Source: an uncultured Pseudomonadales bacterium (GTDB lineage Bacteria > Patescibacteriota > Microgenomatia > UBA1400 > PJMF01). Taken from it: 64,000 nucleotides of DNA. The position numbers were made by a program, and so were the translations under genes. The stretch lies in contig CAYMSV010000001.1 in assembly GCA_964393205.1 (NCBI GenBank), positions 5,841-69,840 on the forward strand. Reading direction: 5' to 3'. This document shows positions 8,724 through 36,190 of the stretch, in pieces (the stretch's first letter is position 1; every line of letters begins with the position of its first letter). The notes beneath the pieces are model-generated. The model did no database searches. It was not told where the DNA came from and was given only the letters and a program-made list of their open reading frames with translations.

Positions 8724-8759
8724 ATACTCGAGTATTTTCCTGCCCCCTTGAAAGTAATT

Positions 8760-12340: not shown

Positions 12341-12990
12341 GAACAAAGAAAAAAACAGAGCAAAAATCAATCGATCTTAGTCAAGAGATTATGACTAAGG
12401 TGAAGGCTGGTGAAATTAACATGAAACCCAGATGGTATTTTGTTTTAGGTTCTAGTTTGCTGTTTTTAGCTTTGGTAACTTTAATTGTTCTGGCGGTTTT
12501 TTTATTTAATGTCAGTTTGTTTGTTTTACGTCGTCAGGGACCAATGCGTTTATGGCGTTTAGAAATGCTTCTTAGTAATTTGCCACTATGGATACCAATT
12601 TTAGCTATTTTAACCCTGTGGGGTGGAATTAAATTATTAAAAAAATATGACTTTTCTTACAAAAATAATTTCTTGCTGATTATTATTACTTTTGTGATAG
12701 CCATTATTGCAGCTGCCTGGGCAATTGATAGTTTAGGACTCAATGAATTTTGGTCAAGAAAAGAACCCATGAGGCGCTTTTACCAAAATTTAGACCCGAA
12801 TTTTGAAGGCAAAAACTTTGGAAATAAGCCTGGAACTGGCAAGTCCGAGCCTGGCAGTGGCAAGTCTGAACCTGGAATTGGCAAGTCCGAGCCTTGGCAG
12901 TGGCAAACGCTTTTAATCAAACTTATTCAAGCTCGGTCACTGGAGCGACAGCATCCACTTTCCACTCAGCATTTTCTTCAATTAAGGTGA
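12319..12990 (+). CDS. polytopic membrane protein co-transcribed with the ECF sigma (candidate anti-sigma); C-terminal PG(S/T)GKSEPG x3 repeat
   Basis: Overlaps sigma gene by 22 nt; 3 TM helices; 21-bp coding tandem repeat at 12826..12900; 3' end overlaps convergent gene so the true stop is uncertain. Confidence 0.45.
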   Translation: MSKTKKVRTKKKTEQKSIDLSQEIMTKVKAGEINMKPRWYFVLGSSLLFLALVTLIVLAVFLFNVSLFVLRRQGPMRLWRLEMLLSNLPLWIPILAILTLWGGIKLLKKYDFSYKNNFLLIIITFVIAIIAAAWAIDSLGLNEFWSRKEPMRRFYQNLDPNFEGKNFGNKPGTGKSEPGSGKSEPGIGKSEPWQWQTLLIKLIQARSLERQHPLSTQHFLQLR

Positions 12991-14505: not shown

Positions 14506-15588
14506 TTACTTAAAGTCGATCAGGTTTTTGATTTCGCTAAATAAGCAAGGATTTTTGCCGGCGAATTGAACTTTTTTCAAAACTAAGCGTTTGTCAGACT
14601 TTTTTTCTTCAATTTTACAAGACAAAATTTTTAATCGTTGTTCACCTTTGTGAGTAGGGACAATCGTCCATAATCCAGGCCAAGGCTGAAAAGCTGAACA
14701 AGCGTTTTTGATAAATTGCATTTGTTCAAGCTTTGTTAAGGGATAGTTGCCCAAAACTCCTTGTCCAGCCAATAATTGGCTAAGTAAGGTGTCTTTTTTA
14801 ATGTTTAAGGAAGAGTTATTTTTTTGTAATTCTTTCAATTTTTCATCTGAGCTAAATTCCAACAAGCCTTGTAATTGTGACCAAACCACAAAAGCGTCTG
14901 CCTTATCTAGGCGCTGAGCAAATGGGGTAGGGGCCTGTTTGGGTTGAGCTATTGGCTTTAATTGGCCTTTAACAAATTTTAAGATATTGTTTGCTAGAGA
15001 TTGTCTAATTAAAGTAAAAGCACTTTGATAATAGTCTGCTAGTGTCCAATTTTTGGCAATATCAAATGTTTTTTGCAAGATAATATCACCACTATCAAGT
15101 TCTTTTTTAACGGTCATCAGGGTGACAGCAGTTTTCTGGCCGCCAATTAGCTCGCCTTGCCAAGGACGTTTAAAATCCTGAAAAAGCATGGCAAATTGCC
15201 CAGGAGAACTACCTCGCCAACGAGGTAAAAGAGAGGGATGTATATTGAGCGCATCTATTTTGGGAAAATCCAAGAGCCAATCTGGAATAAAATAACCAAA
15301 ATCAACTACAAGCAAGATATCGACTTCGTGGGCACGAATTTGTTTTTTTAGTTGCAAATTTTTTAAATTATCGGGAACCAAAAAAGTGTTAATTTTTTTT
15401 TCTTTAGCCCAAAGAGCTAGGGGGTTAATAGTTAGTAGTTGTTTACGACCCACTTTCTTTGGTGGTGGAGTGAGTACCCAAACCAATTCAAAAGCTTTAT
15501 TACTGGCTAATTTTTCAGCAATTTCTTGACTATGTTGAGTTGAACCAGCAATTGCCAAGCGCAGTGGAGGAGAGGGATTCAATTTCAT
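14506..15588 (-). CDS. fmt: methionyl-tRNA formyltransferase
   Basis: NIHPSLLPRWRGSSP formyltransferase motif; immediately downstream of def. Confidence 0.85.
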   Translation of the reverse strand: MKLNPSPPLRLAIAGSTQHSQEIAEKLASNKAFELVWVLTPPPKKVGRKQLLTINPLALWAKEKKINTFLVPDNLKNLQLKKQIRAHEVDILLVVDFGYFIPDWLLDFPKIDALNIHPSLLPRWRGSSPGQFAMLFQDFKRPWQGELIGGQKTAVTLMTVKKELDSGDIILQKTFDIAKNWTLADYYQSAFTLIRQSLANNILKFVKGQLKPIAQPKQAPTPFAQRLDKADAFVVWSQLQGLLEFSSDEKLKELQKNNSSLNIKKDTLLSQLLAGQGVLGNYPLTKLEQMQFIKNACSAFQPWPGLWTIVPTHKGEQRLKILSCKIEEKKSDKRLVLKKVQFAGKNPCLFSEIKNLIDFK

Positions 15589-18397: not shown

Positions 18398-19642
18398 ATG
18401 ACTAATATTCAAGATGATCAATTAAATGTAAATAACGACTCCAATACTGTTGTTGTTGATAATAACAATCAACAAACAGAACAAGTTGCTGCTTCTTCAG
18501 ATCAAACTAATAAAGCTGCTCCAACTAAGGCTAATGTTGAAGAACTACTAAGCCAACTAGAAGCTTTAAATAAAGAAATTGCTGCCAAAACAGTTGTTGA
18601 TCAAACTCAGTTGGAAGATAAGAAAGAAGAAACAGAAAAGCTAGAAGCTCCTGCAGCTCAGCCTGCTCTAGAGAGCAGTGATGAAGCTCAGTTGCCAGTT
18701 AGCACTGAAGAAATTAGTCAAGCTCAAGAAACAAGCCAAGCTCAAGAAACAAGCCAAGCTCAAGAAACAACTGAAGAAAATAATAAAAGTCAAACAGATC
18801 TTGATTTGGATAAATTTATTAATGAACTTGAGACAAAAATTGCTCAGAAAAATGATGAGCCAAATCAGGAGCCTAAAGCTGATCAAAATAGTGAGGTGGC
18901 TAATTCTGTTGACCTTGGTCAAGATTCTATGGTTAAGCCCACCCCAATGCCCACTATTACTCCAGATCCAAATTTGACTAGCGTAAATGAAGTAGAAGAT
19001 TCTGTAGTAGAAAAGGAAAATCCGGTTGCGGTTGAAGAAAACTTCAGTCAAGTTCGACCCTCCTTAGATTTATCAGGTGTTAGTGAGCAAGCAACTCCTT
19101 CGTTAACCCTAAATAATGGTCAACTAGAGGAAAAAACCCAAACTCCAGTTGATAATGCTCCAATTTCTCAACCGAAGACAGAGACAGAAGAAACTAAAGT
19201 TGATGATGAGAGCTTGGAGGCTCAAAACCTCTTTACTATGTTGGCTTTAGATACTATCAGTGAAGAGGAAAAACAAGGATTTCTTAAAGATTTAGAACAG
19301 TTAATTTGGGATAATTTTGTCGAAGTAGAGTTACCCCTTTTATTAAACAATGAGGAAAAAAATCAGGCAGATCAAATCTTGGCTGACAGTAGTAAGACAG
19401 AGGATGAACGTAAAGAAGCTCTCTTGGTTTATCTAGATAAATTTGTGCCAAATCTTGAAGATATGATGTACAAGAAAGCCCTGACACTTAAAAAAGAAAT
19501 GTTTGAAGAGAGATTGAAAAAACTCAGAGAAAATGCTACTGAAGCAAATAACTTGAGTCTAATTGCGGACTTAGACCAGATTCAAGAACTAGTCCAAGCT
19601 GGTCGATACAAAACTGCCGTAAATCTTTTGAATAAAGCCTAA
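18398..19642 (+). CDS. acidic low-complexity protein with SQAQET x3 tandem repeat
   Basis: 18-bp coding repeat caagctcaagaaacaagc x3 at about 18709..18770; Glu/Gln/Thr-rich; no homology recognised. Confidence 0.4.
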   Translation: MTNIQDDQLNVNNDSNTVVVDNNNQQTEQVAASSDQTNKAAPTKANVEELLSQLEALNKEIAAKTVVDQTQLEDKKEETEKLEAPAAQPALESSDEAQLPVSTEEISQAQETSQAQETSQAQETTEENNKSQTDLDLDKFINELETKIAQKNDEPNQEPKADQNSEVANSVDLGQDSMVKPTPMPTITPDPNLTSVNEVEDSVVEKENPVAVEENFSQVRPSLDLSGVSEQATPSLTLNNGQLEEKTQTPVDNAPISQPKTETEETKVDDESLEAQNLFTMLALDTISEEEKQGFLKDLEQLIWDNFVEVELPLLLNNEEKNQADQILADSSKTEDERKEALLVYLDKFVPNLEDMMYKKALTLKKEMFEERLKKLRENATEANNLSLIADLDQIQELVQAGRYKTAVNLLNKA

Positions 19643-28490: not shown

Positions 28491-29450
28491 ATGCAAAAAA
28501 GTTTAGCTTTGTATTTGCCCGTTATGCATGAGGGTTATCGCTTGTTTTTAGAAAAAAACAAAGACGCTAGTTTATTGTTTTTATTTGATCGGCAATTTTT
28601 GTCTCAGTGGCCAGCTTTTGAGTATATAAAAAAAGATATTAGGGCTCTAAATAGCCAACTAGTAAAGCAGATGTTGGAGAAAATTTATTCTAATATTGAA
28701 ATTAAAGTGATAAGAAATCAAGAGGATTGGCAAGTTTTTCTAGATAGGGTTGCAAGTGAAAAAAGAGAATGGGTATTGAGCAATGATGATTTGGGAAGAT
28801 ATTTAGCTGAAGAATTTTTAAAAGGGCAGAAGATTTCTTTTGATTCATTCTTTTTACGTTGGGATCGGCCAGCAGTTGAGCAGGCAACACAGTCTAAAAC
28901 AACTTTAGAAAAAGAAAATAAAGTCGCGCTTGACCAAATGATTAGCGCTGATCACTTTGAAAAAGAAATAATGAAAAAGGCTTTTGTGCAAGCTAATTAT
29001 AGTAATGATTGGTGGAGGCAGGTGGGAGTGGTTTTTCTTAAAGATGGCCAAGTATTGATGAGTGCATACAATCAGCATTTACCCAGCCAACAAGAACAAT
29101 ATTTTAGTGGTGATCCACGCACTTTATTTTCCTCTGGAGAAGCCATTGAATTAACAAGTTCTATTCATGCTGAGGCGCTCGCTATCGCTCGCGCTGCTAG
29201 CCAAGGCATTGCCTTAGCTGGAGCAGATTTATTTGTGACCACTTTTCCTTGTCCGATTTGTGCTAAACAAGTAGCTGCGGCTGGTATTAAGAGGCTTTAT
29301 TACAGTCATGGTTACTCGCTGTTAGATGGCGAGCAGGTTTTGACTAGCGCCGGCATAGAAATTATTAAAGTAGAGTTTTCCAAAAAAGAAGAGCAAGAAC
29401 TTGCAGATCAAAAAAATCAGTCTAGCAATTTGAAAAAGCGCTATTCTTGA
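28491..29450 (+). CDS. dCMP/cytidine deaminase-domain protein with an unassigned ~170-aa N-terminal domain
   Basis: Zn-binding HAE (SSIHAEALAI) and PCPIC motifs in C-terminal half; start is 1 nt after the preceding stop. Confidence 0.6.
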   Translation: MQKSLALYLPVMHEGYRLFLEKNKDASLLFLFDRQFLSQWPAFEYIKKDIRALNSQLVKQMLEKIYSNIEIKVIRNQEDWQVFLDRVASEKREWVLSNDDLGRYLAEEFLKGQKISFDSFFLRWDRPAVEQATQSKTTLEKENKVALDQMISADHFEKEIMKKAFVQANYSNDWWRQVGVVFLKDGQVLMSAYNQHLPSQQEQYFSGDPRTLFSSGEAIELTSSIHAEALAIARAASQGIALAGADLFVTTFPCPICAKQVAAAGIKRLYYSHGYSLLDGEQVLTSAGIEIIKVEFSKKEEQELADQKNQSSNLKKRYS

Positions 29451-31301: not shown

Positions 31302-31772
31302 TTAATTTTTATCTCGATTCTTACCAATTTTAATTCTGACTGGAGCAAAATCAGGGTCTGTTAAGTCTGGTTCTATGAGCTGAACATGCAAATGATTGAC
31401 AGTGCCAGCACTATAATTTGTATCACCAAAGCGCATGGCAAATCCGCCCCCCTGTAATTTATATGATTCTTCGATTTCTGCTACTAGTTCAAATAATTCT
31501 TGACCAGCGGCTGGTGAGAGATCGCTGAGGTTGACGGCATGAACTTTATAGATTAATAAAAAATGATGCTTGGTGTGTGCATAGGGCCATTGATTTGTAG
31601 TCACTATCCAAAATTTGCCCTCTTTGAGAATTGGTTCTTGGTGATATTTACAAAGATTTTCTCGACAAAAAGGACAATGTTTAGCTTCAGCAATATCTTC
31701 CATAACTTGCTTCTGTTCATCTTCGCGTGCGTTATCGATATCGATAAACTGATTTTTTTGTTTTTTTGTCAT
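31302..31772 (-). CDS. HIT-superfamily protein of the GalT-like branch (HxHxQ) with N-terminal CPFC zinc knuckle
   Basis: NHLHVQLI has Gln in the third position as in GalT/Ap4A phosphorylase; CPFCRENLCKYH upstream; ATG 31772 overlaps thyA stop by 4 nt. Confidence 0.55.
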   Translation of the reverse strand: MTKKQKNQFIDIDNAREDEQKQVMEDIAEAKHCPFCRENLCKYHQEPILKEGKFWIVTTNQWPYAHTKHHFLLIYKVHAVNLSDLSPAAGQELFELVAEIEESYKLQGGGFAMRFGDTNYSAGTVNHLHVQLIEPDLTDPDFAPVRIKIGKNRDKN

Positions 31773-31774
31773 GT

Positions 31775-32647
31775 TTATACTGCCACCGGAATATTCCAAA
31801 TACCAGGATGAGGTTTATAGTTTTCTAAAGTGAAATCTTCTTTGCGAAAAGCAAATAAATCTTTAATTTTGGGATTAAGTTTCATTTCGGGTAAAGGTCG
31901 TACTTCTCGTTTAAGCATAGTTTTTACTGCTTCAATTTGGTCAACATAAATATGAGCATCAGAAAAACTATGAACGAATTCGTAAGCTTCAATATTTAAA
32001 ACCTGAGCGATCATCATCGTTAGAGCAGCATACTGAACCATGTTGGCAGGCACACCAATTGGCACATCGGCACTGCGCTGAAACATGTGCAGGGTTAATT
32101 TATTATCAATAATCCTCATATGAATCCAGCCATGACAGGGGCAAACCACCACTTTTTGGGTGCGATCTTTGATGCGCATAGTATATTGAGGTACCCAAGG
32201 GCTAATAAAATGAGTGCGCAGATGAGGTTTTTCACGCATTTGCTGCAAAATGCTAGCAAATTGATTATAAGTTTCACCCTCGGCAGTGGGAAAGTCATGA
32301 AAGGCAGCCCCATAAGATCCAGGACCAAGATCGCCAGTTTCAAGCCCTCGTTTTTTAGCTTTGGCTTCAGTACCCCAAGCTTTCCACCAATAACAACCAT
32401 AACTTTCTAGTTCCTCTATGGTTCGAGCACCATTAATAAAAGCAATAATTTCGCCAATGGCTTGTTGCCAAATTTTTTCACTTAATTTGCGTTCGGTAAT
32501 AGCAGGAAAACCCTTTGCTAACTGATAGTGCATCGGTTTAGGACCAATAATGGTCAGAGCATCTACTCCTTGTGGAGTCTTTACTCTTTGTCCATGTTCA
32601 AGAATTTCAGCTAATAACTGTTGATATTGAGAGCGTTGTTTTTCCAT
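31775..32647 (-). CDS. thyA: thymidylate synthase (ThyA)
   Basis: Catalytic-Cys motif CPCHGWIHMRII(D) and ADVPIGVPANMVQYA typical of ThyA; 290 aa. Confidence 0.9.
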   Translation of the reverse strand: MEKQRSQYQQLLAEILEHGQRVKTPQGVDALTIIGPKPMHYQLAKGFPAITERKLSEKIWQQAIGEIIAFINGARTIEELESYGCYWWKAWGTEAKAKKRGLETGDLGPGSYGAAFHDFPTAEGETYNQFASILQQMREKPHLRTHFISPWVPQYTMRIKDRTQKVVVCPCHGWIHMRIIDNKLTLHMFQRSADVPIGVPANMVQYAALTMMIAQVLNIEAYEFVHSFSDAHIYVDQIEAVKTMLKREVRPLPEMKLNPKIKDLFAFRKEDFTLENYKPHPGIWNIPVAV

Positions 32648-32662
32648 AAGTTCTAATATATC

Positions 32663-32700
32663 ATAAAGCCGAAACGAAAGAATAAAGCCGAACTGAAAGA
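32663..32700. repeat. 19-bp tandem direct repeat ATAAAGCCGAAMYGAAAGA x2 in the thyA/cofE-like divergent intergenic region
   Basis: Two adjacent 19-mers, 17/19 identical, ending 6 nt before ATG 32707 and 16 nt from the thyA start. Confidence 0.6.
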
Positions 32701-32706
32701 ATTTTT

Positions 32707-33504
32707 ATGAAAGTAACTGCATTAAAAACTCCAATGATTGGTATCGGTGAAAAACTGAGACCAATTATTAATACTGCTATTAAAGAAAAGTTTAGCGATG
32801 GTTTGCCAGAGCGCTCAGTACTGGTCATTACTTCTAAAATTATTGCCTACGAACAAGGACGACTGATACCCACCTTAGCAGCAGAGACAGGGGCAGAAGT
32901 AACTAGGGAGGAAGAACGGGCTTTAAAACACCAACTAGTGCGCCAAGAAGCCGATTATTATCTTGAGCCTCATAGTTCAAAATATGATTTAATGCTAACT
33001 GTTACCAATGCGACTTTGATGATTAATGCAGGTATTGATGAATCTAACGCTAATGAACACTATGTACTTTGGCCAAAAAATTTATATGCTGAAGCAGAAA
33101 AAATTTGGCGAAATCTTAGGGAGGATTTTTCAGTTAAGGAAGTGGGTGTTATTATTCCTGATAGTCGCTCTGTCCCTTTGCGCTGGGGAGTAGTAGGTAT
33201 GTCACTAGCTAGTTGTGGCTTCCGACCACTCAACGATCATGTTGGTGACGAGGATTTGTTTGGTCGAGAAATTAAAATGGTACAGGTTAACGTAGCTGAA
33301 GCACTGGCTACAGCTGCTGTGTTCGAGATGGGTGAAGTGGCAGAACAAACTCCTTTGGCTTTAGTGACCGACAGCAAAATGATTAAATTTATGGATCGAC
33401 CACTTAACGAGCAAGAATTAGGGGAACTGGAAATTGCAATTGAAGATGATATGTATGGTCCATTATTAACCAGCGTTGATTGGCAAAAGGGAAAAAATGA
33501 CTGA
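32707..33504 (+). CDS. CofE-family (F420-0:gamma-glutamyl ligase-like) protein
   Basis: VLVITSKIIAYEQGR, NAGIDESN, GVIIPDSRSVPLRWGVVGMSLASCG, EDLFGREIKMV align with conserved CofE blocks (from memory). Confidence 0.7.
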   Translation: MKVTALKTPMIGIGEKLRPIINTAIKEKFSDGLPERSVLVITSKIIAYEQGRLIPTLAAETGAEVTREEERALKHQLVRQEADYYLEPHSSKYDLMLTVTNATLMINAGIDESNANEHYVLWPKNLYAEAEKIWRNLREDFSVKEVGVIIPDSRSVPLRWGVVGMSLASCGFRPLNDHVGDEDLFGREIKMVQVNVAEALATAAVFEMGEVAEQTPLALVTDSKMIKFMDRPLNEQELGELEIAIEDDMYGPLLTSVDWQKGKND

Positions 33505-34072
33505 AAAGAAAAAATCCAGAATTAAAGATACTTTAATTGTAGCCACTAGCAAAGATGGTTTTATTAGTCCGGCAGATGGTGTTGAGTTGCCTTCAACAAA
33601 GTGGACTAGTGAGGAAGATTATCAGTTTTTTACTGAAAAAACTAAAGAAATTGGTGTCTTAATTATGGGTCGAGCCACCTATGACACAATTGGTCGACCT
33701 TTACCTGGACGTTTGACTGTGGTGTTGACTCGTGATAGCGAGAAACAAGCTGAGTTGGCTCGAAAGAAATTTAAAATGGATTGGTTACCTAATAATTTAC
33801 GCTTTACTAATAAATCTCCGCAAGAAGTTTTACAGGCACTAGCAACTGAGGGTTATGAGCAGGTGGCCTTGTGTGGAGGGGCGAGTTTATATCAATTGTT
33901 TACCGAACAAGATTTAGTTGATGAAATGTTTATTACCATTGAGCCAATTGAATTTGGTGAAGGCATTAAATTGTTTGAAAATAACAAAATCTTTGGTAAT
34001 TTTCAGTTGATCAAGGAAATCCCACTCAATGAGCAGGGCACCATAGTGCAACATTGGATTCGCAAAAATTAG
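33497..34072 (+). CDS. dihydrofolate-reductase-family protein (RibD C-terminal-domain type)
   Basis: IVATSKDGFISPADG...IMGRATYDTIGRPLPGRLTVVLTRD is the RibD_C/DHFR-like pattern; ATG 33497 overlaps cofE-like stop by 8 nt; adjacent to thyA. Confidence 0.65.
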   Translation: MTEKKKSRIKDTLIVATSKDGFISPADGVELPSTKWTSEEDYQFFTEKTKEIGVLIMGRATYDTIGRPLPGRLTVVLTRDSEKQAELARKKFKMDWLPNNLRFTNKSPQEVLQALATEGYEQVALCGGASLYQLFTEQDLVDEMFITIEPIEFGEGIKLFENNKIFGNFQLIKEIPLNEQGTIVQHWIRKN

Positions 34073-34087
34073 TTTTTATTGAAACTG

Positions 34088-34264
34088 TTATTTAATTAAG
34101 TTTTCGATTTCTTGATCGCTCAATTCAGGATATGCTTCTTTAAGTTTTGTAAACTTTATTTCCTGAGAGTTGTATCTCAGCGCTTCTGCTAAGCGTTTCG
34201 CATCTTCAATCATTTGAGCTTTTTCAGTTAGGTGTTGTTGGCCTTCTGTTCTTAGTTCTGTCAT
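34088..34264 (-). CDS. possible small protein (58 aa), not in ORF track
   Basis: Hand-translated MTELRTEGQQHLTEKAQMIEDAKRLAEALRYNSQEIKFTKLKEAYPELSDQEIENLIK; 42 nt downstream of the MBL gene on the same strand; no RBS or homology. Confidence 0.3.
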   Translation of the reverse strand: MTELRTEGQQHLTEKAQMIEDAKRLAEALRYNSQEIKFTKLKEAYPELSDQEIENLIK

Positions 34265-34915: not shown

Positions 34916-34982
34916 TACTTTAGTCTAGCTTATTTGTCAAAAATTTGTTAGCATGATCGCTGAATTTAATGAGAGGAAATTA

Positions 34983-35414
34983 ATGAAAGTAAAGATTAAG
35001 CGCTTTGATAAAACTTTGCCGCTACCAGTTTATAAAACCAGTGGTGCCGCGGCGCTAGACTTAGCCAGCAGAGAAGAAATGAAAATTGAAGCCGGGCAAG
35101 TTGATTATTTACCTCTCAATATTGCACTACAAGTACCTAAGGACAGTTTTGTCTTAGTGGCGGCGCGCAGTTCATTGCACAAACGGGGTTTATTTTTAGT
35201 GAATGGCATTGGTATTGGTGATAGCGATTATTGTGGTGGTGAGGATGAATATCGAGCAGCTGTCTATAATTTTTCCAAAGAAACAGTTACAGTGAAAAAG
35301 GGTGAACGAGTAGCGCAAATGATGGTTCTGAGAAGGGAGAAAGTTGAGTGGGAAGAACTAGATGATTTTAGCGATCAGAAAAACCGTGGTGGTTTTGGAA
35401 CTACTGGTCAGTAA
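34983..35414 (+). CDS. dut: dUTP diphosphatase
   Basis: Trimeric dUTPase motifs GIGIGDSDYCGGE and RGGFGTTGQ; GAGAGGAAA RBS before ATG 34983. Confidence 0.85.
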   Translation: MKVKIKRFDKTLPLPVYKTSGAAALDLASREEMKIEAGQVDYLPLNIALQVPKDSFVLVAARSSLHKRGLFLVNGIGIGDSDYCGGEDEYRAAVYNFSKETVTVKKGERVAQMMVLRREKVEWEELDDFSDQKNRGGFGTTGQ

Positions 35415-35476: not shown

Positions 35477-36190
35477 ATGAAGCCTGCACAAAAAAAAGGA
35501 TTACTGATTACTTTGGAAGGTGGAGAGGGAGGTGGCAAAACCACTCAAATTGTGCGCTTAAAAAATCGTTTAGTTAAAGCTGGTAAAGATGTGGTAGTTT
35601 TGCGTGAACCAGGCGGTACGGCCATTAGTGAACAAATTCGTGAAGTAGTTTTATCCAGCAAAAATATTGGCATTGCTTTTACTACCGAAGTTTTATTATT
35701 TCAGGCGGCTCGCTCACAAATTTATCGAGAAATTGTTCTGCCTTCACTTAAAGCTGGAAAAATAGTGGTGATGGATCGATCCCGAGACAGCAGTGTGGTT
35801 TATCAGGGAATGGTTAGGGGTTTTGGTATAGAATTAATCGAGCAGTTAAATGACATTTCAACCAAAAAAACTTATCCAGATATTACTTTTTTACTTGATG
35901 TTCCAGTAAAAATTGGTCTTGAAAGAAGAAATGGCGCAGGCGATGTCAATCGTTTAGATATGGAAGCTAAGGATTTTCATCAAAAAGTTCGTCAATCCTA
36001 TTTAGAATTAGCAAAAAAAGATCAGAAAAAAAATGGCAAAAATGCTCGCTGGGTAGTGGTTGATGCTGAGCCAGAAATTGAGCAAGTTGAAAAGAAAATT
36101 TGGCAGACTGTCAAAGATTTTTTAGTGAAAAAAGAGCTTAGTCCTTGGCAAGATGAAGTCTCAGATCTTGATTTAGAATATTCAGAATAA
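35477..36190 (+). CDS. tmk: thymidylate kinase
   Basis: P-loop LITLEGGEGGGKTTQ, DRSRDSSVVYQG lid region. Confidence 0.9.
   Translation: MKPAQKKGLLITLEGGEGGGKTTQIVRLKNRLVKAGKDVVVLREPGGTAISEQIREVVLSSKNIGIAFTTEVLLFQAARSQIYREIVLPSLKAGKIVVMDRSRDSSVVYQGMVRGFGIELIEQLNDISTKKTYPDITFLLDVPVKIGLERRNGAGDVNRLDMEAKDFHQKVRQSYLELAKKDQKKNGKNARWVVVDAEPEIEQVEKKIWQTVKDFLVKKELSPWQDEVSDLDLEYSE

What the first reader, a model, noticed from the sequence alone, without database searches (positions are those of the whole stretch)
32707..34072. CofE-like gamma-glutamyl ligase translationally coupled to the DHFR-family gene beside thyA
The 265-aa protein aligns block-for-block with the F420-0:gamma-glutamyl ligase CofE family. 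No other F420 biosynthesis gene (cofC/D/G/H) is in the window. Its stop overlaps the start of a RibD_C-type DHFR-family protein by 8 nt (ATGACTGA), and the pair is divergent from thymidylate synthase, separated by a tandem-repeat element. No canonical folA or folC was seen in the window. This is a hypothesis: the pair may supply dihydrofolate reduction for ThyA, with the CofE homologue acting on a folate or flavin-like substrate (a non-orthologous polyglutamylation step), rather than in F420 synthesis.
Basis: inference. Interest (0 to 1): 0.55.

Follow-up and report, generated by a model that had tools for sequence, protein, structure and literature searches.

The report
FolC2-type folate glutamate ligase with DHFR

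Summary
ORF 32707-33504 (265 aa) is a CofE-fold protein: Pfam F420_ligase 5.6e-35, and an AF2 model with pLDDT 93.7 matches only A. fulgidus CofE. Its stop overlaps by 8 nt (ATGACTGA) the start of a 191-aa reductase (33497-34072). The pair is divergent from thyA across a 59-nt spacer holding a 2 x 19-nt repeat.

Its best curated model is TIGR04132, "putative folate metabolism gamma-glutamate ligase" (226 bits, against 113 for CofE; below both cut-offs). That is the FolC2 idea: Chlamydia CT611, a COG1478/CofE homologue next to folA, complements an E. coli folC mutant (PMC1971073).

Three results here support it:
- The catalytic core is invariant, but the three CofE elements that hold the F420 head group are replaced.
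- DHFR is the commonest neighbour (directly adjacent in 15 of 74 loci, in both gene orders, with overlapping stop and start).
- One alphaproteobacterial locus has FolC2-like, FolK-FolP and DHFR in a row.

The "RibD_C-type" partner is a real DHFR, closest to Thermotoga maritima DHFR (5.5e-28). The repeat is a recent duplication. A whole-genome check for F420 genes and folC was not possible. Verdict: a new member of a known kind, of modest interest.

The parts
32707..33504 (+). FolC2-like gamma-glutamate ligase (CofE fold, COG1478), 265 aa
   Evidence: PF01996 at 5.6e-35. TIGR04132 226 bits over the full length, against CofE TIGR01916 113 bits. AF2 model pLDDT 93.7 matches only Af-CofE, TM 0.73-0.80. 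Catalytic core invariant but F420 head-group contacts replaced.
33497..34072 (+). Dihydrofolate reductase (folA type, Thermotoga maritima-like), 191 aa
   Evidence: DHFR_1 63 bits and RibD_C 53 bits. Best PDB hit is T. maritima DHFR 1cz3/1d1g, 5.5e-28. By my own residue mapping from the alignments and E. coli numbering recalled from memory, W36, D41, F45, R67 and R72 are the equivalents of E. coli W22, D27, F31, R52 and R57.
33497..33504 (+). 8-nt stop/start overlap ATGACTGA (translational coupling), with an AAGGGA Shine-Dalgarno-like motif just upstream
   Evidence: Read directly from the sequence. The same ATGNNTRR overlap is seen in L008, L009, L010, L013, L014 and L027. ATGA or TAATG overlaps are seen where the order is DHFR then FolC2.
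31775..32647 (-). Thymidylate synthase ThyA, divergent from the pair
   Evidence: PF00303 228 bits. TIGR03284 197 bits, above its cut-off of 108.
32648..32706 (.). 59-nt divergent intergenic spacer containing a 19-nt tandem duplication (32663-32702)
   Evidence: TRF: 2.1 copies, 90% match. Unique in the window. Two copies in L008, one in L009. No consensus promoter was called.
31302..31799 (-). HIT-family protein immediately downstream of thyA (same strand)
   Evidence: PF01230 at 3e-06. Found next to thyA in about 10 related loci.
28491..29450 (+). dCMP deaminase with a ~150-aa N-terminal extension (supplies dUMP)
   Evidence: PF00383 at residues 157-272. Conserved in the island in 11 loci.
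34953..35414 (+). dUTPase (supplies dUMP)
   Evidence: PF00692 at 8.7e-21.
35477..36190 (+). Thymidylate kinase (consumes dTMP)
   Evidence: PF02223 Thymidylate_kin on the called gene.
14506..15588 (-). Formyl_trans_N protein next to peptide deformylase; read as methionyl-tRNA formyltransferase, a second folate-dependent enzyme in the window
   Evidence: PF00551 Formyl_trans_N next to Pep_deformylase. The Fmt assignment is my inference from that pairing.

Best explanation
The pair is a folate-recycling and folate-trapping module in the thymidylate-synthesis island of a CPR (Patescibacteria) bacterium of the Pacebacteria/Microgenomates group.

Proposed mechanism:
1. ThyA makes dTMP from dUMP and oxidises 5,10-methylene-THF to dihydrofolate.
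2. The 191-aa enzyme is a genuine NADPH-dependent DHFR that regenerates THF.
3. The 265-aa CofE-fold enzyme is a FolC2-type ligase. It keeps the nucleotide/metal-dependent acyl-phosphate chemistry of CofE, but its head-group pocket is rebuilt for a pteroyl (folate) substrate instead of the F420 deazaflavin.
4. It adds gamma-linked glutamates to salvaged or recycled (dihydro/tetrahydro)folate. This retains the cofactor in the cell and makes it a better substrate for ThyA and the other folate enzymes.
5. The two genes are translationally coupled through the 8-nt overlap, so they are made together.

What is shown: the fold, the family placement, the conserved catalytic residues, the replaced F420 contacts and the conserved linkage to DHFR.
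What is inferred: the folate substrate, the glutamylation activity, the physiological role, and FPGS-only use in salvage rather than DHFS in de novo synthesis.
For: Family placement:
- TIGR04132 'putative folate metabolism gamma-glutamate ligase' is the best model: 226 bits, profile positions 1-241 of 241 covered. CofE equivalogs score 81-113 bits, all below their cut-offs.
- Ten relatives from CPR, Spirochaetia, Christensenellaceae, Caldilineaceae and Alphaproteobacteria behave the same way: 200-326 bits against 102-131 bits.
- In a three-group alignment the CPR clade is closer to the proteobacterial TIGR04132-like clade than to Archaeoglobi CofE (Kimura distance 1.12 against 1.81). The split of CofE from the rest appears in 39 of 40 bootstraps.

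Active site:
- N107, A108, G109, D111, S113, N114, D152, S153, M208, G209 and E210 are 97-100% conserved across all three groups.
- The Af-CofE contacts to the F420 isoalloxazine named in PMC10861534 (F92, G153-C155, R234) are replaced.
- Af-CofE F92 aligns with an unconserved position.
- Af-CofE G153-R154-C155 corresponds to S/T-x-P here.
- Af-CofE R234 corresponds to Ile here (92-95%).
- The S/T155 and I243 replacements are shared by the CPR and proteobacterial FolC2-like groups; P157 is near-invariant in CPR (97%) but only the majority residue (57%) in the proteobacterial group.

Genomic context:
- DHFR is the largest neighbour cluster.
- It lies within 8 kb in 19 of 74 GTDB loci. It is directly adjacent on the same strand in 15, in both orders, with 1-8 nt overlaps in most and gaps of 1 and 14 nt in L067 and L076.
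- L074 reads FolC2-like, FolK-FolP fusion, DHFR. This mirrors the Chlamydia folKP-folA-folC2 operon (PMC4161248).

Precedent and partners:
- Chlamydia CT611 (COG1478) complements E. coli folC mutant SF4 (PMC1971073).
- The partner is a real DHFR. CPR folA genes complement E. coli delta-folA (PMC11974145).
- The window also holds ThyA and a putative Fmt (Formyl_trans_N next to deformylase), both folate users, and no Mur-ligase FolC.
Against: - The protein scores below the curated cut-off of TIGR04132 (226 against 350 bits).
- I could not obtain the Chlamydia CT611 sequence, so I could not place the validated enzyme in the same alignment.
- That CT611 belongs to the TIGR04132 seed is from my memory only.
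- No enzyme of the CPR clade has been assayed.
- In 55 of 74 loci no DHFR lies within 8 kb.
- Only 64 kb of the genome was seen, so a canonical folC or F420 genes elsewhere cannot be excluded.
- The 2007 complementation shows FolC-like function in vivo, but not the substrate range or the nucleotide used.
Confidence: 0.75

Rival explanations
1. It is a gamma-glutamyl ligase of the CofE fold that acts on some other carboxylate-bearing cofactor or metabolite, neither folate nor F420. Examples would be another pterin or a nucleotide-derived molecule. Its link to DHFR would then reflect that other pathway.
For: - The score is below the TIGR04132 cut-off.
- Most loci (55 of 74) have no DHFR nearby.
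- Other recurrent neighbours have no known folate role: a Vut_1/COG1738 transporter, known for preQ0 and queuine uptake (PMC5372724), and a PduO-type cobalamin adenosyltransferase homologue, found near the gene in 7 CPR loci and directly adjacent in 4.
- Some DHFR-like neighbours are more RibD_C-like than DHFR-like; L068 scores RibD_C 71 bits against DHFR_1 31 bits.
Against: - In the window the partner is a clear DHFR with the folate-binding residues, and it sits next to thyA.
- The S/T155 and I243 head-pocket replacements are shared with the proteobacterial group, which scores close to the TIGR04132 cut-off (L066, 326 bits). One member of the family sits in a folK-folP-DHFR cluster.
- A validated homologue replaces FolC (PMC1971073).
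Confidence: 0.15
2. It is a genuine CofE (F420-0:L-glutamate ligase), and the organism makes or remodels coenzyme F420. The position beside DHFR and thyA would be coincidental.
For: - Pfam names the domain F420_ligase.
- The only structural relatives are A. fulgidus CofE.
- NCBI names many homologues 'coenzyme F420-0:L-glutamate ligase'.
Against: - TIGR01916 scores 113 bits against a cut-off of 180.65, and the other CofE models are also below their cut-offs.
- The F420 head-group contacts F92, G153-C155 and R234 are not conserved.
- No cof gene is among the Pfam-annotated genes of the window.
- CPR phyla are not among the F420-producing phyla listed in the 2021 review.
- The overlap with DHFR is conserved across species.
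Confidence: 0.03
3. The CofE-like protein has lost ligase activity and serves as a structural or regulatory partner of DHFR.
For: Tight translational coupling in both gene orders suggests that the two proteins are made in fixed proportion.
Against: All metal, nucleotide and glutamate-site residues are invariant across 33 to 121 sequences. That pattern is typical of an active enzyme. Most family members are not next to a DHFR.
Confidence: 0.05

Closest known systems
FolC2 (Chlamydia trachomatis CT611; COG1478; NCBIfam TIGR04132 'putative folate metabolism gamma-glutamate ligase')
   Same: - Same CofE fold and the same best curated model, aligned over its full length.
- Sits directly beside folA; Chlamydia has folKP-folA-folC2 in one operon.
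- No F420 genes were seen around it.
- Occurs in a reduced-genome, host-dependent bacterium.
   Different: - Scores 226 bits, below the 350-bit cut-off.
- Belongs to a separate, very large CPR clade (1633 hits).
- The gene order is folC2 then folA, with an 8-nt overlap, and the pair is divergent from thyA.
- It is not embedded in a de novo folB-folKP cluster, so it probably works on salvaged folate (FPGS role) rather than on dihydropteroate (DHFS role).
- It has not been tested experimentally.
CofE / FbiB N-domain (F420-0:L-glutamate ligase; TIGR01916; PDB 2phn, 2g9i, 7uld)
   Same: Same fold (TM 0.73-0.80, about 25% identity). Identical catalytic motifs: NAGIDxSN, the Asp-Ser/Thr pair (D152-S153 here, D150-T151 in Af-CofE) and MGE. 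It therefore presumably uses the same nucleotide/Mn2+-dependent acyl-phosphate mechanism in a dimer-interface site.
   Different: - The F420 head-group contacts (F92, G153-C155, R234) are replaced.
- There is a 6-7 residue insertion carrying an invariant Phe228, and a family-specific C-terminal motif (ExxxIxxxDDxYxPLLxxxxW).
- It scores below the CofE model cut-offs.
- No cof gene neighbours were found.
FolC (COG0285, Mur-ligase-type dihydrofolate synthase / folylpolyglutamate synthase)
   Same: The proposed reaction is the same: gamma-glutamylation of folates.
   Different: The fold is unrelated, so this is a non-orthologous displacement. FolC uses ATP; CofE uses GTP. Which nucleotide this enzyme uses is unknown.
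Thermotoga maritima DHFR (PDB 1cz3/1d1g)
   Same: It is the closest solved relative of the partner protein (101 bits). By my own mapping of the alignment, it shares the W-x4-D-x3-F and GRxTxxxIGRPLPxR motifs.
   Different: The window protein has a ~12-residue N-terminal extension. It also scores on RibD_C. Whether it is a dimer is unknown.

Membership tests
FolC2 / TIGR04132 folate-type gamma-glutamate ligase | CofE (PF01996) fold | tested here: met
   Pfam 121 bits. Foldseek finds only Af-CofE, TM 0.73-0.80.
FolC2 / TIGR04132 folate-type gamma-glutamate ligase | Best-scoring curated model is TIGR04132, aligned end to end | tested here: met
   226 bits, profile positions 1-241 of 241, against 113 bits for CofE TIGR01916.
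FolC2 / TIGR04132 folate-type gamma-glutamate ligase | Score reaches the curated cut-off (350 bits) | tested here: not met
   226 bits. All ten relatives tested also fall below it, at 200-326 bits.
FolC2 / TIGR04132 folate-type gamma-glutamate ligase | Gene clustered with folate genes (folA, folKP) | tested here: met
   8-nt overlap with DHFR in the window. DHFR directly adjacent in 15 of 74 loci. L074 has FolK-FolP and DHFR.
FolC2 / TIGR04132 folate-type gamma-glutamate ligase | Genome lacks canonical FolC (COG0285) and the other F420 biosynthesis genes | tested here: inconclusive
   None among the Pfam-annotated genes of the 64-kb window. The rest of the genome was not available.
FolC2 / TIGR04132 folate-type gamma-glutamate ligase | Replaces FolC function (complementation, or folate glutamylation in vitro) | not testable with these tools
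   Shown only for Chlamydia CT611 (PMC1971073).
CofE (F420-0:L-glutamate ligase, TIGR01916) | Score reaches the curated cut-off (180.65 bits) | tested here: not met
   113 bits. NF009809 scores 106 against 274, and NF009810 scores 81 against 304.
CofE (F420-0:L-glutamate ligase, TIGR01916) | Residues that hold the F420 isoalloxazine (Af-CofE F92, G153-C155, R234) conserved | tested here: not met
   R234 corresponds to I243, G153/C155 to S155/P157, and F92 to an unconserved position. The contact residues are taken from PMC10861534.
CofE (F420-0:L-glutamate ligase, TIGR01916) | Catalytic metal/nucleotide core | tested here: met
   D111, S113, N114, D152, S153 and E210 are invariant. That these are the metal ligands is from my memory of the Af-CofE structure papers.
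CofE (F420-0:L-glutamate ligase, TIGR01916) | Co-occurrence with cofC, cofD, cofG and cofH | tested here: inconclusive
   Absent among the Pfam-annotated genes of the window. CPR phyla are not listed among F420 producers (PMC8498797). The genome was not seen.
Dihydrofolate reductase (FolA, PF00186) | Pfam gathering score and closest solved structure | tested here: met
   63 bits against a cut-off of 25. T. maritima DHFR at 5.5e-28, followed by many bacterial DHFRs.
Dihydrofolate reductase (FolA, PF00186) | Catalytic Asp and folate/NADPH-binding motifs | tested here: met
   My own residue mapping from the alignments, with E. coli numbering recalled from memory: W36, D41, F45, T61, R67 and R72 match E. 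coli W22, D27, F31, T46, R52 and R57, and the GG motif is CGGAS.

The most novel reading that the evidence does not exclude
FolC2-type ligases, not FolC, may be the standard folylpolyglutamate synthetase of a large part of the Patescibacteria. They may form a compact 'import, reduce, trap' folate-salvage operon there: a Vut_1/COG1738 transporter, then DHFR, then FolC2, all translationally coupled. This arrangement was seen in four lineages including Saccharimonadales and Levybacteria. It would give the Vut_1 family, so far known only for queuosine-precursor uptake, a new folate or pterin substrate. It would also mean that many 'coenzyme F420 ligase' annotations in CPR genomes, and possibly 'cofE' calls in metagenome studies, are wrong.
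Probability: 0.3. Interest if true: 0.5.

Novelty: new member of a known kind. Interest (0 to 1): 0.28.

Why it matters
CPR bacteria depend on hosts or neighbours for most cofactors. A 2025 study argued that folate reduction by CPR DHFR underlies exchange between CPR bacteria and their hosts, but it did not address how folates are glutamylated or retained (PMC11974145).

Recognising the CofE-like gene as a FolC2-type enzyme fills that step. It gives a coherent thymidylate cycle for these organisms:
- dCMP deaminase and dUTPase supply dUMP.
- ThyA converts dUMP to dTMP.
- Thymidylate kinase consumes dTMP.
- DHFR and FolC2 maintain the folate cofactor.

It also flags a widespread annotation problem. 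Close homologues are variously named F420 ligase, folate-metabolism ligase, DHFS/FPGS and even DNA polymerase III beta clamp. Reading them as 'F420 biosynthesis' could mislead metabolic reconstructions of metagenomes.

It does not open a new kind of biology. The enzyme recruitment was described in 2007.

Tried and rejected
- Whole-genome check for cof, folC, folP and folK. The tools return at most 10 kb either side of a gene, and 12 look-ups cannot cover a ~1 Mb genome. Only the 64-kb window was annotated, through precomputed Pfam hits.
- Getting the validated Chlamydia CT611 sequence for a joint tree. A search seeded with the protein scoring closest to the TIGR04132 cut-off (L066) returned proteobacterial and Tisiphia sequences but no named Chlamydia entry in the top 120. 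A literature search for TIGR04132 found nothing. The tree therefore has only three groups.
- The tandem repeat as a regulatory element. It is unique in the window but not conserved in the 83%-identical relative, and no consensus promoter or terminator was called in the spacer. I rejected it as a conserved element.
- FolC2-like genes on viral contigs, prompted by a paper that reports viral 'cofE' genes. No confirmed relative was found in IMG/VR.
- Supplementary tables of PMC11974145 for folC, folP, folK or F420 counts in 4,581 CPR genomes. No occurrences in the files held.
- Rfam and tRNA scans found only two tRNAs, far from the locus.
Full report
**1. What is in the sequence**

- A 265-aa ORF lies at 32707-33504 (+).
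- A 191-aa ORF starts at ATG 33497, 5 nt before the TGA stop of the first ORF. The overlap is ATGACTGA, 8 nt. An AAGGGA Shine-Dalgarno-like motif sits just upstream.
- An independent gene caller on public contigs carrying the identical protein places the same two genes with the same overlap.
- Upstream and divergent lies thyA (31775-32647, minus strand; Pfam 228 bits; TIGR03284 197 bits against a cut-off of 108).
- The 59-nt spacer holds a 19-nt unit in 2.1 copies (32663-32702). The unit occurs nowhere else in the window.
- The repeat is present in a 93%-identical relative (L008), but the 83%-identical L009 has only one copy. It is a recent duplication, not a conserved element. No consensus promoter was called in the spacer.

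**2. The surroundings**

The surrounding genes form a thymidylate island:
- two CTP_transf-like nucleotidyltransferases
- a dCMP deaminase with a long N-terminal extension (28491-29450)
- an HD protein and a Cof-type HAD phosphatase
- a HIT protein and thyA on the minus strand
- the CofE-like and DHFR pair
- a metallo-beta-lactamase-fold protein
- dUTPase (34953-35414), thymidylate kinase (35477-36190) and recR

The same island recurs in about ten related genomes.

Elsewhere in the window, a Formyl_trans_N protein next to peptide deformylase (14506-15588) is most likely Fmt, a second folate-dependent enzyme. Pfam annotation of called genes over window 2319-63420 shows no Mur-ligase FolC, no folP, folK, folB or folE, and no CofC/D/G/H-type gene.

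The nearest relatives are Patescibacteria of the Pacebacteria, Microgenomates and Woesebacteria groups.

**3. The CofE-like protein**

Fold:
- It hits Pfam F420_ligase at 5.6e-35 and A. fulgidus CofE in the PDB at 4.6e-17.
- An AF2 model built on 33 homologues has pLDDT 93.7. It matches only CofE structures (TM 0.73-0.80, about 25% identity; next hit E = 0.8).
- The 'CofE-like' observation is therefore solid.

Family:
- The best curated family is TIGR04132, 'putative folate metabolism gamma-glutamate ligase'. It scores 226 bits and is aligned end to end.
- The three CofE equivalog models reach only 81-113 bits. All four scores are below their curated cut-offs.
- Ten relatives from CPR and non-CPR lineages show the same pattern.

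Alignment of 41 CPR, 40 proteobacterial TIGR04132-like and 40 Archaeoglobi CofE sequences:
- The catalytic core is 97-100% conserved in all three groups: N107, A108, G109, D111, S113, N114, D152, S153, M208, G209 and E210.
- The three elements that the 2024 Af-CofE ligand structures identify as holding the F420 isoalloxazine are F92, G153-C155 and R234 of the dimer partner (PMC10861534). All three are changed.
- R234 (100% conserved in CofE) corresponds to Ile (92-95% in both FolC2-like groups).
- G153-R154-C155 corresponds to S/T-x-P. The S/T is fixed in both groups; the Pro is 97% in the CPR group and 57% in the proteobacterial group.
- F92 aligns with an unconserved position.
- The FolC2-like groups also share a 6-7 residue insertion with an invariant Phe228 and a C-terminal motif, DDxYxPLL....W.
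- Distances agree: CPR to the proteobacterial FolC2-like group 1.12, CPR to CofE 1.81. The split of CofE from the rest appears in 39 of 40 bootstraps.

The chemistry is kept and the head-group pocket is rebuilt.

**4. The partner protein**

It passes both DHFR_1 (63 bits) and RibD_C (53 bits). By a wide margin its closest solved relative is Thermotoga maritima DHFR (5.5e-28), followed by dozens of bacterial DHFRs. Mapping the alignments by hand, with E. coli numbering recalled from memory, places W36, D41, F45, T61, R67 and R72 on E. coli W22, D27, F31, T46, R52 and R57.

CPR folA genes, including ones from Paceibacterales, have been shown to complement E. coli delta-folA (PMC11974145).

**5. 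Comparative context**

A scan of GTDB species representatives returned 80 loci. In 74 of them a FolC2-like ORF was called.
- Unbiased clustering of the three genes on either side gives DHFR as the largest neighbour family.
- Profile searches find DHFR within 8 kb in 19 of 74 loci. It is directly adjacent on the same strand in 15.
- Both gene orders occur. FolC2 then DHFR carries an ATGNNTRR 8-nt overlap in at least six species at 49-93% protein identity to the window (L008, L009, L010, L013, L014, L027). DHFR then FolC2 carries ATGA or TAATG overlaps in four.
- Coupling in two independent arrangements argues for a functional link rather than inherited synteny.
- In L074 (an alphaproteobacterial MAG) the FolC2-like gene overlaps a FolK-FolP fusion, which is followed by DHFR. 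That mirrors the Chlamydia folKP-folA-folC2 operon (PMC4161248).

**6. What is known**

- The 2007 SEED analysis of folate genes noted that chlamydiae lack folC but have a COG1478/CofE homologue (CT611, 'folC2') in their folate cluster. [quoted passage not shown]
- The CofE/CT611 pair is listed as a textbook paralogue trap (PMC5041015).
- Databases already partly reflect this. JGI names the 95%-identical P0001 'dihydrofolate synthase / folylpolyglutamate synthase'. NCBI names some CPR homologues 'putative folate metabolism gamma-glutamate ligase' but others 'coenzyme F420-0:L-glutamate ligase'.
- I found no paper in the library that discusses this enzyme in CPR bacteria. The CPR folate paper does not mention folC.
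- The 2021 F420 review lists no CPR phylum among F420 producers.

**7. Most likely mechanism**

ThyA consumes methylene-THF and releases DHF. The coupled DHFR regenerates THF. The FolC2-type ligase uses CofE-like nucleotide/metal-dependent acyl-phosphate chemistry to add gamma-glutamates to the folate tail. This traps the salvaged cofactor in the cell and improves it as a substrate.

No de novo folate genes were seen in the window, and cofactor biosynthesis pathways are reported as mostly absent in CPR genomes (PMC11974145). The enzyme probably therefore acts as an FPGS on imported folate. This parallels the FolC that Rickettsia retains for host-derived THF (PMC5615194).

Shown: the fold, the family placement, residue conservation and replacement, and gene linkage.
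Inferred: the substrate, the activity, the nucleotide used and the salvage role.
Confidence: about 0.75.

Rivals: another non-folate, non-F420 substrate (0.15), a true CofE (0.03), and an inactive partner protein (0.05).

**8. Limits**

- The protein is below the curated TIGR04132 cut-off.
- I could not retrieve the Chlamydia CT611 sequence for a joint tree.
- Only 64 kb of the genome was seen.
- A scan of viral contigs for FolC2-like genes found none.

**9. Verdict**

This is a new, untested member of a known kind, in a lineage where the enzyme has not been discussed. Interest is modest (0.28).

The most novel reading still open is a Vut_1-DHFR-FolC2 'import, reduce, trap' operon in several CPR lineages. 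It would give the COG1738 transporter family a folate-related substrate.

Noticed in passing
L045 6747-8759; L050 6827-8768; L068 6799-8750; L073 6815-8759; L086 7231-8672; L005 7343-8756: A Vut_1 (PF02592, COG1738/YhhQ-family) transporter gene lies directly upstream of DHFR-like and FolC2-like genes in L045, L050, L068 and L073. The genes are on the same strand, and the DHFR-like and FolC2-like genes overlap by 1-4 nt. In L086 and L005 it lies directly before FolC2-like. The family is known only for preQ0 and queuine uptake, so this context suggests a folate or pterin importer.
   Followed up: partly
L018, L023, L024, L025, L026, L037, L040 (downstream of the FolC2-like gene near 8750): A PduO-type cobalamin adenosyltransferase homologue (PF01923, 1.2e-40) follows the FolC2-like gene in 7 CPR loci listed (8 profile hits). 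It is directly adjacent in four of them, with overlaps in three. I have no explanation for this.
   Followed up: partly
L074 7965-10559: An alphaproteobacterial MAG has FolC2-like, a FolK-FolP fusion (HPPK plus Pterin_bind, 4-nt overlap) and DHFR_1 in a row. This is a Chlamydia-like de novo folate cluster in another lineage.
   Followed up: yes
L067 6900-10628: The order here is a RimK-like ATP-grasp protein, FolC2-like, DHFR and an MFS transporter. From memory, RimK-type ATP-grasp enzymes add alpha-glutamate caps to F420 and methanopterin in archaea. A second glutamate ligase next to FolC2 is therefore intriguing.
   Followed up: no
window 28491-29450: The dCMP deaminase carries a ~150-aa N-terminal extension with no clear Pfam domain (weak ATP-grasp_4 hit, 0.003). 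A protein of the same length (about 315-322 aa) recurs in related islands (L005, L010).
   Followed up: no
window 31302-31799 (-): A HIT-family protein with an N-terminal CPFC motif follows thyA. Its longest ORF overlaps the thyA stop; an internal ATG at 31772 would leave a 2-nt gap. A homologue lies next to thyA in about 10 related loci. Its role in the thymidylate island is unknown.
   Followed up: no
window 34088-34264 (-): A 58-aa ORF between DHFR and the MBL-fold gene is called as a gene on all public contigs that carry the locus. It has no Pfam hit.
   Followed up: no
one search hit list (P0074, P0105, P0031, P0041) and record titles: Annotation is inconsistent. Homologues are named F420 ligase, folate-metabolism ligase, DHFS/FPGS or 'DNA polymerase III beta clamp subunit'. 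Many CPR-like contigs in GTDB carry the record title 'uncultured Pseudomonadales bacterium'.
   Followed up: no
L034, L038, L043, L056 (Spirochaetia, contigs of 0.5-7 Mb); L051, L065, L079 (Caldilineales); L052, L060 (Christensenellales): FolC2-like genes (TIGR04132 score well above the CofE score in the three tested: L043, L051 and L060) also occur in large-genome, free-living lineages, with no DHFR detected within 8 kb. Their role there, and whether those genomes also have folC, is open.
   Followed up: no
window 12827-12906 and 18708-18770: Two in-frame-length tandem repeats (21 nt in 3.8 copies; 18 nt in 3.5 copies) lie inside coding regions elsewhere in the window.
   Followed up: no
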